From IMG/VR virus record IMGVR_UViG_3300028596_000009, positions 64,001-128,000 of that record: 64,000 bases of DNA. One strand, 5' to 3'. Below, piece after piece: positions 1,385-5,488 of the stretch. Positions within the stretch are counted from its first letter, which is position 1. Each line of letters opens with the position of its first letter. Origin of the DNA: a virus. A program made the translations under genes and the position numbers. The notes beneath the pieces are model-generated. The model did no database searches and had not been told where the DNA came from. It was given only the letters and a program-made list of their open reading frames with translations.

Positions 1385-1464
1385 GGGACTGTGGCGGAAT
1401 TGGTAGACGTTGGTGGTCGAGGGTGCCTCCCTGGCCGTGCGGGTTCGAATCCCGTCAGCTCCCC
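1385..1464 (+). tRNA. Degenerate Leu-type tRNA (anticodon uncertain, GAG or CGA)
   Basis: Leu-like D region TGGCGGAATTGGTAGACG, T arm GCGGG-TTCGAAT-CCCGT; acceptor stem has a bulge, anticodon arm irregular. Confidence 0.5.
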
Positions 1465-1498
1465 CTGGCCGTTGAATGCGAGGATGGCCTCTCGCGCT

Positions 1499-1575
1499 GG
1501 GTGTGTAGTCCAACAGCAGAGACAGCGGCCCGAACGCCGTGACAGTGCCGGTATCGAATCCGGCCACACCCGCCA
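1499..1575 (+). tRNA. tRNA-like RNA with 6-nt anticodon loop and 8-nt T loop, encoded CCA
   Basis: GGGTGTG/CACACCC acceptor + GCCA; GCGGC-CCGAAC-GCCGT; GCCGG-TATCGAAT-CCGGC. Confidence 0.6.
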
Positions 1576-1648
1576 GCCCTCGTAGCTCACTCGGTAGAGC
1601 AGCTCCCTCGTAAGGAGCAGGCAGCAGGTTCGATCCCTGTCGAGGGCT
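1576..1648 (+). tRNA. tRNA-Thr(CGT)
   Basis: Full cloverleaf; GCTCC-CTCGTAA-GGAGC. Confidence 0.92.
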
Positions 1649-1650
1649 CT

Positions 1651-1720
1651 GGGTGACCGTGGTGTCCGCAACGCACACCGATCGTATTTCGGAGGAGCGG
1701 GCCGACCCCGCCGGTTACCC
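1651..1720 (+). ncRNA. Cloverleaf-shaped RNA without tRNA consensus loops
   Basis: GGGTGACCG/CGGTTACCC closing helix enclosing GGTGT/ACACC, TCG/CGG and GCGGG/CCCGC hairpins. Confidence 0.45.
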
Positions 1721-1727
1721 TGCACAA

Positions 1728-1817
1728 GGACAGAGCTTGCGTCGTTGGCCAGACGCGGGGTGTCGTACGCACCTTGCCCCGACGGGGGCTCCGGAGGTTC
1801 GAATCCTTCTCTGTCCA
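1728..1817 (+). tRNA. tRNA-Tyr(GTA) with atypical anticodon loop
   Basis: GGACAGA/TCTGTCC acceptor, long variable arm GCCCC/GGGGC, T arm GGAGG-TTCGAAT-CCTTC, loop TC-GTA-CG (C33, C37). Confidence 0.75.
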
Positions 1818-1888
1818 CGCGGGCCCCATATGGGGCGACAGGGCCAAGTGGGCCCCTGCTCGTTCGAACCGAGGAGAAAGCCCACCCA

Positions 1889-1961
1889 GGATCTGTAGCT
1901 CAGGAGTGAGAGCGCTCGCCTGAAAAGCGAGAGGTCGATGGTGCGACTCCATCCGGATCTA
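1889..1961 (+). tRNA. tRNA-Phe(GAA)
   Basis: Cloverleaf; CTCGC-CTGAAAA-GCGAG; variant T loop TGCGACT. Confidence 0.88.
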
Positions 1962-1977
1962 CGCTAGGGACCCACCA

Positions 1978-2105
1978 GACTGGATATGGGATGGGCGCCG
2001 GTGAAGGCATCGGACATATGGGCGCAGGCCCCACCCGATGAGATAGCCCGGCTCCATGTGGGTGCGCGGCTCTGTCGACGGACAGGGACGTAGGAGAGTT
2101 CAGTC
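1978..2105 (+). ncRNA. Unclassified structured RNA between tRNAs
   Basis: GACTGGAT/GTTCAGTC closing helix; internal CCCAC/GTGGG and CTGTC/GACAG pairs. Confidence 0.35.
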
Positions 2106-2107
2106 AC

Positions 2108-2182
2108 GCCTTCGTAGCTCAGCCTGGTCAGAGCACTCGCCTGTCGAGCGAAAGGTCGCCGGTTCGAATCCGGTCGAGGGCG
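2108..2182 (+). tRNA. tRNA-Asp(GTC)
   Basis: Cloverleaf; loop CT-GTC-GA; GCCGG-TTCGAAT-CCGGT. Confidence 0.92.
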
Positions 2183-2250
2183 CGCCCCATAGGATCCTCC
2201 TGTGACACCTGGCGGTGACGGCCCCGGTGTGTGCCCGGTAAGCACACGAG

Positions 2251-2321
2251 GTCCCTGTAGCTCAGTTGGTACGAGCACCCTCAACGGTGGGAGGTCGCCG
2301 GTTCGACCCCGGCCAGGGACA
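2251..2321 (+). tRNA. tRNA body with truncated anticodon arm (no readable anticodon)
   Basis: Perfect acceptor GTCCCTG/CAGGGAC, D and T arms; anticodon arm 14 nt (CCCTCAACGGTGGG) instead of 17. Confidence 0.7.
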
Positions 2322-2394
2322 CGATGAAGGTGAGGGGTACCGTCACGTGGGAGAGAGACCCGTAGGCTGGTCCTTCTGGAAGAAACCCCCTCAG

Positions 2395-2467
2395 GCTCCT
2401 GTAGCTCAGTGGATAGAGCATCCGCCTTCTAAGCGGAGGGTCGCTGGTTCGAGCCCAGCCGGGGGCA
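2395..2467 (+). tRNA. tRNA-Arg(TCT)
   Basis: Cloverleaf; TCCGC-CTTCTAA-GCGGA. Confidence 0.93.
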
Positions 2468-2469
2468 CC

Positions 2470-2565
2470 GAGTCAGTCGGCATCGCGGTAACGCCGCAGG
2501 GAATCAGGACAAGTGGTGATTGGTCCTGCATGGTGGCCTACATTCTCTGCGGGACTGGCTCTCCA
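2470..2565 (+). ncRNA. Unclassified structured RNA ending in NCCA
   Basis: GAGTCAGTC/GACTGGCTC closing helix followed by TCCA; inner CGCAGGGAAT/ATTCTCTGCG and CAGGAC/GTCCTG helices. Confidence 0.5.
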
Positions 2566-2597
2566 TGGGCCTTCTGGGTCATGAAAACGTACTGCAC

Positions 2598-2670
2598 GGT
2601 CTTGTAGCTCAGCGGATAGAGCGGTCGTCTCCTAAACGACAGGTCACTGGTTCGAATCCAGTCAGGATCA
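2598..2670 (+). tRNA. tRNA-Arg(CCT)
   Basis: Cloverleaf; GTCGT-CTCCTAA-ACGAC. Confidence 0.93.
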
Positions 2671-2752
2671 CGGGTCTTCGGCGGTTTGTTGGCACAGCAC
2701 CGAGGACTAGGGCGGGGGCGTCGGCATAGGGCGTTCAAATCCCCGCCCGCAC

Positions 2753-2827
2753 TGGGGTGTGGCTCAGATGGACAGAGCGCCGATTACAACTCGGAGACCG
2801 CAGGTTCGAAGCCTGCCACCCCAACCA
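2753..2827 (+). tRNA. tRNA-like RNA with 4-bp anticodon stem (loop TTACAAC), encoded CCA
   Basis: TGGGGTG/CACCCCA + ACCA; CCGA-TTACAAC-TCGG; GCAGG-TTCGAAG-CCTGC. Confidence 0.7.
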
Positions 2828-3366: not shown

Positions 3367-3372
3367 ACCGGC

Positions 3373-3401
3373 TTGCGGTGAACGACCGCCAAGGGTAATG
3401 T
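3373..3401 (+). promoter_or_regulatory. Promoter for Y RNA/Ro60 locus
   Basis: TTGCGG-17 nt-TAATGT about 10 nt before the first Y RNA. Confidence 0.65.
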
Positions 3402-3410
3402 CTTCCTTGC

Positions 3411-3481
3411 ACACCGGCACGATCGACAGCGGCTACTTCAATCGGTGAACTCACGCCGCAGTCTACTTTTTGGTCGGGTGT
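3411..3481 (+). ncRNA. Y RNA-like copy 1 (minimal)
   Basis: Terminal helix with CGGCACGA / TTTTTGGTCG bulged stem and CGGCTACTTCA motif shared with copies 2 and 3; adjacent to Ro60. Confidence 0.75.
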
Positions 3482-3588
3482 CACGGGCCTCCTGATGGGG
3501 AGGCGGCACGAAGGTAACGGCTACTTCACTGGTAATGAAACGACGCCGTCACCGTCTTTTTGGTCGTCACCTCTTCAGGAGGCCCGTG
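3482..3588 (+). ncRNA. Y RNA-like copy 2 with Thr(GGT) anticodon-like hairpin
   Basis: 14-bp perfect closing helix CACGGGCCTCCTGA/TCAGGAGGCCCGTG; CGGCACGAAGG / TTTTTGGTCG; TTCA-CTGGTAA-TGAA. Confidence 0.8.
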
Positions 3589-3750
3589 CTGCTGAGATGG
3601 ATGCTCGGCACGCAGGCATGCGGTTACTTCCACTGTTAATGGGGTGGTTGCGGGTTCGAATCCCGCCGGGCCCTTCGGGACCTGTAGCTCAACGGCAGAG
3701 CACCTTGTTACCGCCGCCGACTTTTTGGCCGAGCATCCTTCTGAGCAGCA
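3587..3750 (+). ncRNA. yrlA: YrlA-type Y RNA copy 3 containing a circularly permuted tRNA-Asn(GTT)-like domain
   Basis: GGATGCTCGGC/GCCGAGCATCC stem; then anticodon arm (TTCCA-CTGTTAA-TGGGG), T arm (GCGGG-TTCGAAT-CCCGC), acceptor closed by cUUCGg, D arm (GCTC-AACGGCA-GAGC). Confidence 0.85.
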
Positions 3751-3756
3751 CAGACA

Positions 3757-3790
3757 CCCCAGTCCGATTCCGGGCTGGGGTTTTCCTTTT
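3757..3790 (+). terminator. Intrinsic terminator between Y RNAs and Ro60
   Basis: CCCCAGTCCG-ATTC-CGGGCTGGGG-TTTTCCTTTT. Confidence 0.85.
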
Positions 3791-3806
3791 GGAGAGGGGA
3801 AAGAAC

Positions 3807-5405
3807 ATGGCTCGCATGAACAACAAGCTGACGGCCGCGTCGCTGGTCTCCAGCGTCACCTCGGTCGCTCCGGCGGTCACCGCGCAGGGCGGGAAGGGGT
3901 ACACCAGGGACGCCAAGTCCGAGCTGTACCTCCTGGCCATCGCGAACTTCTACAACCAGGACACCTTCTACGAGACCGGCGACAAGCGCGACACCCGGTT
4001 CGCGGAGCTGGTCAAGAAGGTCGCGGTCGAGGATCTCGACTGGATCTCCAGCATGGCCGGGTGGCTGCGCTCGGGCGCCAACATGCGCACCGCGTCCCTG
4101 GTCATGGGTGTTGAGGCCGTCAAGGCCCGGCTGGACGCCCGGCTGTTCGAGGGCAACGCGAAGCTGCTGAACAGCGTCATGCAGCGCGCCGACGAGCCGG
4201 GCGAGGTCATCGCCTACTGGCGCTCGAAGTACGGCCGCACGCTGCCGGAGCCGGTCCTGAAGGCCCTGAAGTGGTCGGTGTCGCGGCTGTTCAACGAGCG
4301 GTCGTACCTCAAGTGGGACTCCTCCGCCCGGGGCATGTCCTTCGCGGACATCCTGCGGATCGTGCACCCGGACCCGGTGGCGGTGTGGCAGGACAAGCTG
4401 TTCAAGGCGATCCTCGACCGGTCCTTCGGTAACGAGGCCGACCTGGAGGGCCTCGACGTCCTGAAGCAGAACAGGCTCTGGCGTGAGCTGGTGGCCAGTG
4501 ATCCGACCTGCAAGCTTCTGCTCGACCCGGGCTTCATCAAGAGCGCGGGGCTCACGTGGGAGGACGTCCTGTCGGCGCTCGGCTCGAAGGTCAACAAGAA
4601 GCTCCTGTGGGAGGCGATCATCCCGTCGATGGGCTATATGGCCCTGCTGCGGAACCTCAGGAACTTCGACCAGGCCGGGGTGAGTGACGAGGTGGCCTCC
4701 GAGGTCATCGCCAAGCTGACCGACCCGGACGAAGTGGAGCGCTCCCGGCAGATGCCGATGCGGTTCTACTCGGCGTACAAGGCGGCGCCGTCGCTGCGCT
4801 GGGGCTACGCCCTGGAGAAGGCGCTGGAGATGACGCTGAAGAACATCCCGAAGCTGAAGGGCCGCACCCTCATCCTCGTGGACTCCTCGGGGTCCATGTC
4901 CGAGTCCTTCTCGAAGGACGGCTCGGTGCACCGGTGGGACGCGGCGGTGCTCTTCGGCGTCGCCCTGGCCCGCGAGTGTGCCGACGTGGACGTGGTCTCG
5001 TTCTCCTCGGGCTACTGGGGCGGACGCAGGCTCACCATGAACTTCCCGCTGGTGAAGGGGGAGTCGCTGCTGTCGGCGCTGAAGCGGTGGGAGAAGGACG
5101 GCTACTTCATCGGCGGCGGCACGGACACGGTGATGGCGCTCCAGGCCAGCTACCGGGACCACGACCGGGTGGTTATCCTGACCGACGAGCAGGCCGGGCA
5201 CGACGGCATCGAGGTCAGCAACGCCATCCCGGCGAAGGTGCCGCTGTACACGTGGAACCTGGCGGGCTACAAGGTCGGCCACGCGCCGTCGGGTTCGGGC
5301 AACCGGCACGTCTTCGGCGGCCTGACGGACAGTGCGTTCACCCAGATCGCCCTGCTGGAGAACCGGCGTGCCGGTTCCTGGCCGTGGCAGGTGGTGGGAG
5401 ACTAG
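3807..5405 (+). CDS. rsr: Ro60/Rsr TROVE-domain RNA-binding protein with C-terminal vWA domain
   Basis: ELYLLA...DTFYE, RADEPGE, TWE..LS, MGYMALLRNLRNF, ILVDSSGSM (MIDAS), GGTD, ILTDEQ; start moved to ATG 3807 behind GGAGAGGGGA. Confidence 0.95.
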   Translation: MARMNNKLTAASLVSSVTSVAPAVTAQGGKGYTRDAKSELYLLAIANFYNQDTFYETGDKRDTRFAELVKKVAVEDLDWISSMAGWLRSGANMRTASLVMGVEAVKARLDARLFEGNAKLLNSVMQRADEPGEVIAYWRSKYGRTLPEPVLKALKWSVSRLFNERSYLKWDSSARGMSFADILRIVHPDPVAVWQDKLFKAILDRSFGNEADLEGLDVLKQNRLWRELVASDPTCKLLLDPGFIKSAGLTWEDVLSALGSKVNKKLLWEAIIPSMGYMALLRNLRNFDQAGVSDEVASEVIAKLTDPDEVERSRQMPMRFYSAYKAAPSLRWGYALEKALEMTLKNIPKLKGRTLILVDSSGSMSESFSKDGSVHRWDAAVLFGVALARECADVDVVSFSSGYWGGRRLTMNFPLVKGESLLSALKRWEKDGYFIGGGTDTVMALQASYRDHDRVVILTDEQAGHDGIEVSNAIPAKVPLYTWNLAGYKVGHAPSGSGNRHVFGGLTDSAFTQIALLENRRAGSWPWQVVGD

Positions 5406-5433
5406 TACCACCCGTCATCTCTCTGGCGGTGTC

Positions 5434-5467
5434 GAACCCCCTTGGTCGCTGGCCAGGGGGGTTCTTC
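5434..5467 (+). terminator. Terminator after Ro60
   Basis: GAACCCCCTTGGTC / GGCCAGGGGGGTTC hairpin. Confidence 0.65.
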
Positions 5468-5488
5468 ATGTTCCACTGCTCCTGTGAC

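What the first reader, a model, noticed from the sequence alone, without database searches (positions are those of the whole stretch)
3373..5467. Phage Ro60 locus with a tandem array of three Y RNAs, two displaying different tRNA anticodon loops
Seen: promoter, three related RNAs, terminator, Ro60/TROVE gene, terminator. All three RNAs share a bulged terminal helix (CGGCACG / TTTTTGGYCG) and a CGG(C/T)TACTTC motif, then differ in the apical module. Copy 1 has a 5-nt loop (ATCGG), copy 2 a canonical 7-nt anticodon loop CT-GGT-AA (Thr), copy 3 CT-GTT-AA (Asn) plus T, acceptor and D arms. Known: bacterial Ro60 (Rsr) binds Y RNAs, YrlA RNAs mimic tRNA, and rsr/yrl loci are linked to tRNA damage and RNA repair. 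Inference: a modular scaffold in which Ro60 protects RNAs presenting anticodon hairpins as decoys or sensors for host anticodon nucleases, i.e. an RNA-based anti-defence system. No RtcB ligase is visible in this window.
Basis: partly seen in the sequence, partly recalled or inferred. Interest (0 to 1): 0.92.

Follow-up and report, generated by a model that had tools for sequence, protein, structure and literature searches.

The report
Phage Ro60 with anticodon-displaying Y RNAs
A large soil actinophage encodes the RNA-binding ring protein Ro60 preceded by three partner "Y" RNAs, two of which display close copies of tRNA anticodon arms; the same display, with a fast-changing triplet, recurs in many related RNAs of actinobacteria and their phages, which suggests an untested role in conflicts over tRNA.

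Summary
Window 3409-3751 carries three abutting Y-RNA units upstream of a TROVE+vWA (Ro60) gene at 3807-5405, with terminator-like hairpins after the RNAs and after the gene.

Unit 3 is a YrlA-class permuted tRNA mimic. It scores 40.4 bits against Rfam YrlA, below the family threshold of 69. Units 1 and 2 are short Y RNAs on the same scaffold.

Ro60 with tandem Y RNAs in phages is already known (Chen 2014; Thermus phage phiLo, 2025). What I found in no paper is the anticodon display.
- Among 196 unique homologous tRNA-like units from 160 Ro60 loci, 89 have a perfect 5-bp stem with a 7-nt loop placed as a tRNA anticodon arm; shuffles give about 9.5.
- In those loops U33 is present in 86/89 and a purine at 37 in 77/89, with 33 different triplets.
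- 53 of 79 loops equal a genuine Streptomyces tRNA loop over all 7 nt.
- Positions 34/35 change four to six times faster than the flanks.
- Short units show the same signature.

The decoy or sensor role against anticodon nucleases is plausible but untested. The 166.8-kb phage record has no RtcB.

The scan has noted similar anticodon-display RNAs beside Ro60-like genes on other DNA; those notes are unchecked and I did not use them as evidence.

The parts
3372..3400 (+). Promoter-like region (weak -35, 17-nt spacer, TANNNT -10 box) ahead of unit 1
   Evidence: Read from the sequence. The sigma-70 consensus scan did not flag it. -10-like TANNNT boxes lie at a similar distance before the first unit in homologous loci. 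Inferred only.
3409..3481 (+). Y RNA unit 1 (short): basal stem, bulged Ro-type helix (5' strand 3415-3428, 3' strand 3466-3476), closing helix, YUAC-UUC (3434-3439), apical hairpin 3437-3449 with a 5-nt loop
   Evidence: Repeat families D1-D5. Fold of -25.4 kcal/mol, z = -1.76. Same architecture as 99 unique short units in homologous loci. The loop is atypical: 5 nt, or 7 nt without U33.
3482..3588 (+). Y RNA unit 2 (short): 24-nt basal inverted repeat, Ro-type helix with a CGAAGG motif (3504-3514), closing helix, apical anticodon-stem-loop mimic at 3525-3539 (4 bp, loop CUGGUAA)
   Evidence: Inverted repeat I2. Fold of -57 kcal/mol, z = -5.65, with 0 of 200 shuffles folding as well. The 7-nt Y-U-NNN-R loop is shared by 41 of 99 short units, against 2.9 in shuffles.
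3586..3751 (+). Y RNA unit 3 (YrlA class): 24-nt basal inverted repeat, Ro-type helix (3606-3616 / 3721-3731), closing helix (3620-3627 / 3707-3714), anticodon-arm mimic 3628-3644 (loop CUGUUAA), variable loop 3645-3649, T arm 3650-3666, closed acceptor-like stem 3667-3684, D arm 3687-3701
   Evidence: Rfam YrlA RF02553 at 40.4 bits, E = 1.6e-7, below the gathering score of 69. Inverted repeat I1. Arm statistics and covariation in homologues. An A15:U48 Levitt pair is possible, as in 149 of 167 homologous units.
3756..3789 (+). Intrinsic-terminator-like hairpin and U tract after the RNA array
   Evidence: Terminator scan: 11 pairs, 8 of them G-C. Inverted repeat I3.
3807..5405 (+). Ro60 / TROVE + vWA gene (532 aa) with a DxSxS MIDAS motif
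   Evidence: Pfam TROVE 71 bits and VWA_2 23.9 bits. PHROG 850 'RNA-binding protein', E = 1.2e-51. Thermus phage phiLo Ro60 (PDB 9KOP/9L5Y), E = 2e-24. 42-56% identical to Ro60 genes of 160 loci. D359, S361 and S363 are invariant in alignment A1.
5434..5470 (+). Terminator-like hairpin after the Ro60 gene
   Evidence: Terminator scan: 14 pairs, 9 of them G-C.

Best explanation
This is an rsr-type operon of a 167-kb actinophage: one transcription unit of three Y RNAs followed by the gene for Ro60 (TROVE ring plus vWA domain).

Each RNA has four parts: a long basal stem, a bulged helix carrying the conserved CG(A/C)A-type Ro60-binding motif, a short closing helix, and the conserved YUAC-UUC element that starts an apical hairpin.
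- In unit 3 a tRNA elbow (T arm, closed acceptor stem, D arm, in permuted order) is inserted 3' of that hairpin, making it a YrlA-class tRNA mimic.
- The apical hairpin, called the 'V' arm in the literature, is in sequence terms an anticodon arm. It shows the loop of tRNA-Asn(GUU) in unit 3 and a tRNA-Thr(GGU)-like loop in unit 2.

Inferred mechanism. Ro60 binds and stabilises the three RNAs, and their apical modules present anticodon stem-loops (plus, in unit 3, a tRNA body) to factors that read anticodon loops. Most likely the RNAs act as competitive decoys or baits for anticodon-loop-specific ribonucleases of host defence or toxin systems, possibly while tethering Ro60 and host PNPase to them.

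What is shown: the anatomy, family membership, the anticodon-arm signature and its evolutionary behaviour.

What is inferred: Ro60 binding (by homology), expression, and the decoy/bait role.

My confidence is about 0.9 for the identification and about 0.35 for the decoy/bait role. The figure given is a blend.
For: Identification.
- TROVE, PHROG and phiLo-Ro60 hits.
- Sub-threshold but specific Rfam YrlA hits for unit 3 and for units upstream of every close Ro60 relative.
- Shared scaffold repeats.
- Levitt 15:48 covariation in 149/167 units.
- The CGAA-type motif was shown to matter for phage Ro60 binding in phiLo.

The anticodon arm is real.
- The YUAC anchor lies 24-25 nt before the T stem in 108/196 units.
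- 89/196 units have a perfect 5/7/5 arm, against about 9.5 in shuffles and 4-24 for other loop lengths.
- In a frame fixed by position, not by pairing, 77.9% of cells pair against 62.5% shuffled. The covariation score is 0.397 against 0.169 (0/500 shuffles reach it), and slid controls stay at or below 0.159.

The loop behaves like an anticodon loop.
- C32 in 75/89, U33 in 86/89, R37 in 77/89, A38 in 84/89, with 33 different triplets.
- G36 goes with G37 in 13/15 loops, and U36 with A37 in 46/54.
- 53/79 loops equal a genuine Streptomyces tRNA loop over all 7 nt, against 40.1 +/- 2.2 (maximum 47 of 5000) when triplets are permuted.

Fast, body-independent change.
- Mismatch is 0.43 and 0.57 at positions 34 and 35, against 0.10 in the flanks, among close pairs.
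- 23 of 34 orthologous arms with identical stems differ in the loop at 80-100% Ro60 amino-acid identity.
- The body isotype matches the displayed triplet in only 11/60 units.
- No triplet is repeated within 23 multi-display arrays.

Short units carry the same loop signature without any tRNA body: 41/99 against 2.9 in shuffles, with U33 in 43/46.

Literature context. YrlA has been proposed as a competitive inhibitor of an anticodon nuclease. Phage tRNAs are thought to counter tRNA-targeting defences.
Against: - There are no expression, binding or cleavage data for this phage.
- Unit 1 lacks the signature, and about half of the homologous units have no 5/7/5 arm, so the display is not obligatory.
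- The excess of exact loop matches over permutation is moderate, because most loops are of the CU-NNU-AA type.
- Part of the 36-37 correlation may be phylogenetic.
- Fast change at positions 34/35 is also what relaxed constraint inside a U-turn loop would give.
- Salmonella YrlA was not cleaved by the nuclease studied.
- The only tested phage Ro60 works with host PNPase.
- Unit 3 alone does not fold better than shuffles (z = 0.03).
- Relatives are common on actinobacterial chromosomes, so a purely anti-defence role for phages is too narrow.
Confidence: 0.45

Rival explanations
1. Classical RYPER tether. The Y RNAs only tether Ro60 to host PNPase (or gate the Ro60 cavity) for decay or protection of structured RNAs during infection. 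The apical loops are PNPase or effector docking sites, or are functionally indifferent. The anticodon likeness is a relic of descent from tRNA genes.
For: - Rsr-Y RNA-PNPase complexes are established in Deinococcus and Salmonella.
- Thermus phage phiLo Ro60 with Yrl1/Yrl2 forms such a complex with host PNPase.
- The dimeric-tRNA origin model predicts a retained anticodon arm 5' of the T arm.
- About half of the units lack the 5/7/5 arm.
Against: - A relic would decay in length and lose U33 and R37. Instead the 7-nt length and flanks are kept while the triplet turns over.
- Position 37 tracks position 36 as in real tRNAs.
- Short units keep only this hairpin.

This rival is not exclusive of the main explanation.
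Confidence: 0.3
2. The hairpin is simply the variable arm of a class-II-like tRNA mimic, as drawn by Chen et al. 2014. It serves folding only, and the 7-nt U-turn loop is a stable cap with three free positions.
For: Topologically the hairpin occupies the V-arm position if the closing helix is taken as the anticodon stem. In the Salmonella YrlA crystal structure the linking stem stacks as the anticodon stem.
Against: - To my knowledge, variable arms of genuine class II tRNAs do not show this loop signature.
- A normal 4-5-nt variable loop with the Levitt partner still follows the hairpin.
- Loops match host anticodon loops over 7 nt more than permutation allows.
- The same hairpin occurs on short units that have no tRNA body to stabilise.
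Confidence: 0.12
3. The RNAs act as sponges or substrates for anticodon-loop modification enzymes or aminoacyl-tRNA synthetases, retuning host translation. [quoted passage not shown]
For: [quoted passage not shown]
- 7-9-bp closed acceptor-like stems occur in 103/167 units.
- The U36-A37 bias fits t6A-type determinants (my own knowledge).
Against: - Body isotype and displayed triplet are mostly uncoupled (11/60), which argues against synthetase recognition and decoding.
- Short units have no acceptor end.
- The Ro helix is inserted at position 26.
Confidence: 0.1
4. The units are not functional RNAs. They would be decayed tRNA genes or repeat debris next to a tRNA array.
For: A tRNA array lies immediately upstream. 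Unit 3 resembles a tRNA (22 bits against RF00005).
Against: The scaffold, its order and its strand are conserved next to Ro60 in about 140 of 160 loci from many actinobacterial genera and phages, with stem covariation.
Confidence: 0.02

Closest known systems
Bacterial and mycobacteriophage Rsr (Ro60) with YrlA/YrlB Y RNAs (Chen et al. 2014, PMC4201824; Rfam RF02553; Wang et al. 2018, bioRxiv 10.1101/312249)
   Same: - Ro60 gene with several Y RNAs upstream on the same strand.
- Ro-binding CGAA-type motif.
- T arm 5' of the D arm with a closed acceptor stem.
- Levitt-pair covariation.
- A conserved YUAY before a fourth hairpin.
   Different: - The published model calls the fourth hairpin a poorly conserved variable arm and states that YrlA lacks an anticodon loop. 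Here, and in 89/196 relatives, it is a 5-bp/7-nt arm with the anticodon-loop signature and a hypervariable triplet.
- Unit 3 scores below the Rfam threshold (40.4 against 69 bits).
- RtcB is not linked to the locus.
Thermus phage phiLo Ro60 with Yrl1/Yrl2 (Hu et al. 2025, PMC12135203; PDB 9KOP, 9L5Y)
   Same: - A phage Ro60 preceded by tandem Y-like RNAs with a CGAA motif.
- It is the only solved relative by sequence (E = 2e-24).
- It recruits host PNPase.
   Different: - That paper describes no tRNA-like or anticodon-like module; the word 'anticodon' does not occur in it.
- The protein match covers only residues 249-463.
M. smegmatis YrlA/YrlB, processed from one precursor, cleaved by RNase P and given a CCA end (Chen et al. 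2014)
   Same: An actinobacterial array upstream of rsr, with a 7-bp acceptor-like stem closed by a small loop, as in unit 3.
   Different: Processing was not tested here. The anticodon-like hairpin was not discussed there.
Phage tRNAs that escape or compensate tRNA-targeting defences (van den Berg et al. 2023, PMC10264068; PMC11555353)
   Same: The same biological arena: actinophages, anticodon loops, and a tRNA array next to the locus.
   Different: Those are decoding tRNAs. These are Ro60-scaffold RNAs that cannot decode. That paper does not mention Ro60 or Y RNAs.
Unannotated arrays in isolated phages: Streptomyces phages Satis and BRock, Gordonia phage Cashline, Microbacterium phage SM23, mycobacteriophage Cali
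   Same: 2-4 units upstream of the annotated 'Ro-like RNA binding protein', several with anticodon-type loops.
   Different: - The Ro60 proteins are only 25-44% identical.
- The Ro-helix sequence differs: GGUGCG... and other variants there, against GGCACG.../U5GG here.

Membership tests
Ro60 / TROVE proteins | TROVE domain over the Pfam threshold | tested here: met
   PF05731 at 71 bits against a cut-off of 23, though only residues 250-326 align. PHROG 850 covers residues 15-527, E = 1.2e-51.
Ro60 / TROVE proteins | C-terminal vWA domain with a MIDAS DxSxS motif | tested here: met
   VWA_2 at 23.9 bits, just under the cut-off of 27. D359, S361 and S363 are invariant in A1. The phiLo Ro60 match spans residues 249-463.
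Rsr equivalog (NCBIfam NF041674) | Score over the curated equivalog cut-off | tested here: not met
   23.5 bits against a cut-off of 900. The protein is a TROVE-family member but not the Rsr equivalog.
Ro60 / TROVE proteins | Ring fold that binds Y RNA | not tested
   I ran no structure prediction and have no binding data. This is inferred from homology.
YrlA (Rfam RF02553) | Score at or above the gathering threshold | tested here: not met
   Unit 3 scores 40.4 bits against 69 (E = 1.6e-7). The misfit lies exactly where the model expects a long-range helix and the RNA has the local hairpin.
YrlA (Rfam RF02553) | Permuted tRNA core: T arm, closed acceptor-like stem, D arm, 15:48 Levitt pair | tested here: met
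   Coordinates 3650-3701. A15 with U48. 149/167 homologous units keep A:U or G:C.
YrlA (Rfam RF02553) | Encoded within 4 kb of Ro60 on the same strand (criterion of Chen 2014) | tested here: met
   The unit ends 56 nt upstream of the Ro60 start, on the same strand.
Y RNA (general) | Ends pair into a bulged helix carrying the CGAA-type Ro60 motif | tested here: met
   Unit 2 has CGAAGG; units 1 and 3 have CGAU and CGCA variants. The helix with a bulged A pairs to the U-rich 3' strand.
Y RNA (general) | Bound and stabilised by Ro60 | not testable with these tools
   Needs RIP or EMSA.
tRNA anticodon arm (mimicry, not membership) | 5-bp stem, 7-nt loop, Y32, U33, R37, followed by a 4-5-nt variable loop and the T stem | tested here: met
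   Unit 3, 3628-3649. 89/196 homologues. Covariation.
tRNA anticodon arm (mimicry, not membership) | Joined to the D stem through a single nucleotide 26 | tested here: not met
   The closing helix and the whole Ro stem are inserted between the D arm and the hairpin. Topologically the hairpin sits where a variable arm would.
tRNA (RF00005) | Score over threshold and standard arm order | tested here: not met
   22 bits against 29. ARAGORN does not call unit 3, though it miscalls 57 homologous units.
rsr-yrlBA-rtcBA RNA-repair operon | RtcB/RtcA linked to Ro60 | tested here: not met
   The 166.8-kb record has no RtcB, no Rnl2-type ligase and no CCA-adding enzyme. Only 2 of about 165 related loci have RtcB within 1.5 kb.

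The most novel reading that the evidence does not exclude
Ro60-bound Y RNAs of actinobacteria and their phages form a programmable display of anticodon stem-loops. A constant Ro60 'handle' carries an exchangeable, rapidly diversifying anticodon loop, with or without a tRNA body. The loop serves as an RNA decoy, bait or tripwire for anticodon-specific ribonucleases, so each array encodes a repertoire of protected or monitored tRNA specificities. This would give the long-unexplained tRNA-like domain of bacterial Y RNAs a concrete function in tRNA-centred conflicts.
Probability: 0.3. Interest if true: 0.9.

Novelty: new variant of a known kind. Interest (0 to 1): 0.74.

Why it matters
[quoted passage not shown] The published model says YrlA lacks an anticodon loop.

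If the apical hairpin is an anticodon-arm replica, kept in shape while its triplet turns over, and if minimal Y RNAs carry nothing else, then the search for the missing effector narrows to factors that read anticodon loops: anticodon nucleases, modification enzymes and the like.

It also yields simple experiments: loop swaps, nuclease assays, and RIP-seq in culturable Streptomyces phages such as Satis or BRock.

There is a practical side as well. These RNAs are unannotated or mis-annotated as tRNA genes in phage genomes.

Tried and rejected
1. Rfam's long-range helix for the region before the T arm (the alternative pairing of 3641-3644 with 3702-3705). I rejected it because in homologues such as L009 and L007 the partner does not pair, while the local hairpin covaries.

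2. MFE folding of short segments to call loop sizes. It was unreliable because it adds 32-38 type pairs. I replaced it with position-anchored frames.

3. A MAFFT alignment of 47-nt segments (A2). It misaligned 4- and 5-nt variable loops, so I did not use it for pair counts.

4. An exact-pattern scan of viral contigs for the window's own Ro-helix variant. It gave 115 chance hits and no true relative.

5. Repeated capture of whole tRNAs as the source of loop diversity. It is only weakly supported: body and loop agree in 11/60 units against 5.9 expected. Glu-type and Gln-type bodies exist but often carry unrelated loops.

6. A conserved protein partner next to Ro60. I found none within 1.5 kb; the neighbours are heterogeneous.

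7. An attP or tRNA-remnant origin. I rejected it because the D arm and both acceptor strands are present in permuted order.

8. I could not obtain Sim et al. 2020 or Burroughs and Aravind 2016. A prior statement of the anticodon reading in those papers cannot be excluded.
Full report
**What is there**

The window is bases 64001-128000 of a 166,823-bp virus record, estimated 88% complete.

At 3807-5405 on the + strand lies a 532-aa protein with these matches:
- Pfam TROVE, 71 bits against a cut-off of 23.
- A near-threshold vWA domain.
- PHROG 850 'RNA-binding protein' over nearly its whole length.
- The Ro60 of Thermus phage phiLo, PDB 9KOP/9L5Y, E = 2e-24.
- It does not reach the NCBIfam Rsr equivalog cut-off, 23.5 against 900 bits.

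Relatives at 42-56% identity are abundant. More than 580 actinobacterial genome stretches and 172 viral contigs encode one, and 305 deposited phage genomes carry more distant ones annotated 'Ro-like RNA binding protein'.

**The three RNAs**

Upstream, at 3409-3751, are three abutting units. They share the 5' strand of a bulged helix, its U-rich 3' strand and the CGGYUACUUC block (direct-repeat families D1-D6).

Units 2 and 3 sit on 24-nt basal inverted repeats (I1, I2). Extended unit 2 folds at -57 kcal/mol with z = -5.65. Unit 1 gives z = -1.76. Unit 3 folds no better than shuffles, so its support is comparative rather than thermodynamic.

The helix carries the CGAA-type motif (CGAAGG in unit 2). 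This motif marks Ro60 binding from vertebrate Y RNAs to bacterial YrlA, and mutagenesis showed it matters for phiLo Ro60.

Unit 3 matches Rfam YrlA at 40.4 bits (E = 1.6e-7), below the gathering score of 69. It has the permuted core: T arm 3650-3666, closed 7-bp acceptor-like stem 3667-3684, D arm 3687-3701.

Terminator-like hairpins follow the array (3756-3781) and the gene (5434-5464). The proposed promoter is weak, and the scan did not flag it.

**The same architecture elsewhere**

I fetched 160 Ro60 loci with 1.5 kb of upstream sequence.
- Every close relative examined has sub-threshold YrlA hits upstream, on the same strand.
- Inspection shows arrays of units built on the same plan, mostly 2-3 per locus and up to 6.
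- Isolated phages also carry unannotated arrays: Streptomyces phages Satis and BRock, Gordonia phage Cashline, mycobacteriophage Cali.
- The 'tRNA-Asn' annotated in Microbacterium phage SM23 is the 5' half of such a unit.

Phage Ro60 with upstream Y RNAs is therefore a known kind. Chen et al. 2014 reported YrlA in 22 phages and several Y RNAs per locus. Hu et al. 2025 showed binding for phiLo.

**Is the apical hairpin an anticodon arm?**

Rfam's model pairs the segment before the T arm with the segment after the D arm. In this family a local hairpin forms instead.

I anchored on the T arm and collected 196 unique permuted units.
- The YUAC element lies 25 nt (81 units) or 24 nt (27 units) before the T stem. 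That is 3 + 17 + 5 or 3 + 17 + 4, the length of an anticodon arm plus a class-I variable loop.
- 89 units have a perfect 5-bp stem with a 7-nt loop ending 3-6 nt before the T stem. Shuffles give about 9.5, and any other loop length gives 4-24.
- In a frame set only by position, 77.9% of cells pair (62.5% shuffled, 0/500 reach it). The covariation score is 0.397 (0.169 shuffled; at most 0.159 when the partner is slid). There are 98 double-sided changes at the two loop-proximal pairs.
- The loop has C32 in 75/89, U33 in 86/89, a purine at 37 in 77/89 and A38 in 84/89. The central triplet takes 33 different values.
- The tRNA-like fold is supported independently by the 15:48 Levitt pair, A:U or G:C in 149/167 units.

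Topologically the hairpin sits where Chen et al. drew a 'V' (variable) arm, because the closing helix can be read as the anticodon stem. In sequence and dimensions it is an anticodon arm, and a normal variable loop still follows it.

Wang et al. 2018 state that YrlA lacks the anticodon loop. None of the papers I could read describes this signature. Two reviews were not available.

**Does the loop copy real tRNA loops?**

I extracted the tRNA set of one Streptomyces genome that also carries such a locus.
- Of 79 displayed loops whose triplet is an anticodon in that genome, 53 are identical to the genuine loop over all seven positions. Permuting triplets among loops gives 40.1 +/- 2.2, with a maximum of 47 in 5000.
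- The matches include idiosyncratic loops of tRNA-Gln, Pro, Glu and Arg.
- Position 37 follows position 36 as in tRNAs: G after G in 13/15, A after U in 46/54.

The excess is real but moderate, and part of it may reflect shared ancestry.

**How does the loop evolve?**
- Among unit pairs at most 12% divergent elsewhere, mismatch is 0.43 and 0.57 at positions 34 and 35 and 0.27 at position 37. It is 0.10 in the flanks and 0 at positions 33 and 38.
- I found 34 orthologous arm pairs with identical stems in loci whose Ro60 proteins are 80-100% identical. Of these, 23 differ in the loop, often at two to four positions.
- The tRNA-like body is of a few types (a generic type, a Glu type, a Gln type). 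It agrees with the displayed triplet in only 11/60 units, against 5.9 expected. The loop therefore changes independently of the body.
- In 23 arrays with two or more display loops no triplet is repeated (0 of 31 pairs; 1.8 expected). This is suggestive only.

**The short units**

I found 99 unique short units that have the scaffold and the hairpin but no tRNA body.
- 41 have a 7-nt loop on a stem that starts at the conserved UUC, against 2.9 in shuffles.
- U33 is present in 43/46 and a purine at 37 in 40/46.

Window unit 2 is a typical member. Unit 1 is atypical, with a 5-nt loop, or a 7-nt loop without U33.

The element common to all units is thus the handle plus the hairpin. The tRNA elbow is an optional insertion 3' of the hairpin.

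**Mechanism**

By homology, Ro60 binds the handle and stabilises the RNAs. The apical modules are the effector side, as in other Y RNAs.

Four features point to a partner that reads the anticodon loop itself rather than the tRNA body or acceptor end:
- the loop's tRNA geometry is conserved;
- it copies host anticodon loops;
- its triplet turns over quickly and independently of the body;
- it is the only module in the minimal units.

Anticodon nucleases of defence and toxin systems are the best candidates. A phage would gain from decoys or baits, and Hughes et al. 2020 already suggested that YrlA might competitively inhibit such a nuclease.

This step is inferred. Relaxed constraint in a U-turn loop, a PNPase-tether role as in phiLo, and sequestration of modification enzymes all remain open. 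Because relatives are common on bacterial chromosomes, the system cannot be solely a phage counter-defence.

RNA repair enzymes are not part of it here. The phage record has no RtcB, Rnl2-type ligase or CCA-adding enzyme, and RtcB lies within 1.5 kb in only 2 of about 165 loci.

**Context and earlier notes**

The locus lies directly downstream of a tRNA array at 1385-2827, where ARAGORN reports several odd genes. I did not test that beyond seeing the odd calls.

The phage's own tRNAs do not include the GUU or GGU anticodons shown by units 3 and 2.

The scan has also noted anticodon-display RNAs beside Ro60-like genes in unrelated phages. I treat those notes as leads, not evidence.

**Verdict**

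The locus is a new member of the known Ro60/Y RNA kind. The anticodon-arm display is general, statistically solid and apparently undescribed, and it makes this a new variant of that kind. It also gives a testable handle on the function of bacterial Y RNAs.

Noticed in passing
L001:2484-2550 (Microbacterium phage SM23) and 57 units in L003-L166: tRNA finders call the 5' halves of these Y RNAs tRNA genes, using the anticodon of the display hairpin. The deposited 'tRNA-Asn' of SM23 is such a case: its D arm lies 3' of the T arm.
   Followed up: yes
window 3482-3505/3565-3588 and 3586-3609/3728-3751: Units 2 and 3 stand on 24-nt, nearly perfect basal duplexes and abut without a spacer, which suggests double-strand-specific processing of a polycistronic precursor. 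Homologous loci have shorter stems and an ACAACUUCA-like spacer between units (66/161 loci).
   Followed up: partly
L003-L016, about 1455-1500 (just before the Ro60 start): In close homologues a C-rich/G-rich hairpin with a U run lies directly before the Ro60 start codon, and its 3' arm is the only Shine-Dalgarno-like sequence. It could act both as terminator of the RNA array and as a translational gate for Ro60. In the window the hairpin (3756-3781) and the ribosome-binding site (3792-3799) are separate.
   Followed up: partly
window 1385-2827: The tRNA array just upstream contains oddly built genes in the ARAGORN output: 81- and 91-nt genes, one with a 2-nt 'anticodon', and rare anticodons. 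Only six pass the Rfam tRNA threshold. An earlier scan note reads several of them as tRNA mimics.
   Followed up: no
window 3415-3428, 3504-3514, 3606-3616 with 3466-3476, 3556-3566, 3721-3731: All three units use a Ro-helix variant (GGCACG... paired to U5GGYCG). It differs on both strands from the consensus of the 160 related loci (GGUGCG... paired to UUGAUCUCGG), which suggests concerted change with this phage's own Ro60. I found no other contig with this variant.
   Followed up: partly
L079:3108-4439 (-) and L118:3042-4151: These are the only two related loci with an RtcB ligase gene within 1.5 kb of Ro60. The Ro60-RtcB linkage typical of enterobacteria is mostly absent in this actinobacterial family.
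   Followed up: yes
L223:1020-1420 (Streptomyces phage Satis): The second unit of Satis looks like a full mimic of tRNA-Gln(CUG): a Gln-type loop, a 4-nt variable loop identical to the Streptomyces tRNA-Gln, and a Gln-type D arm. In other units the body and the loop are unrelated.
   Followed up: partly
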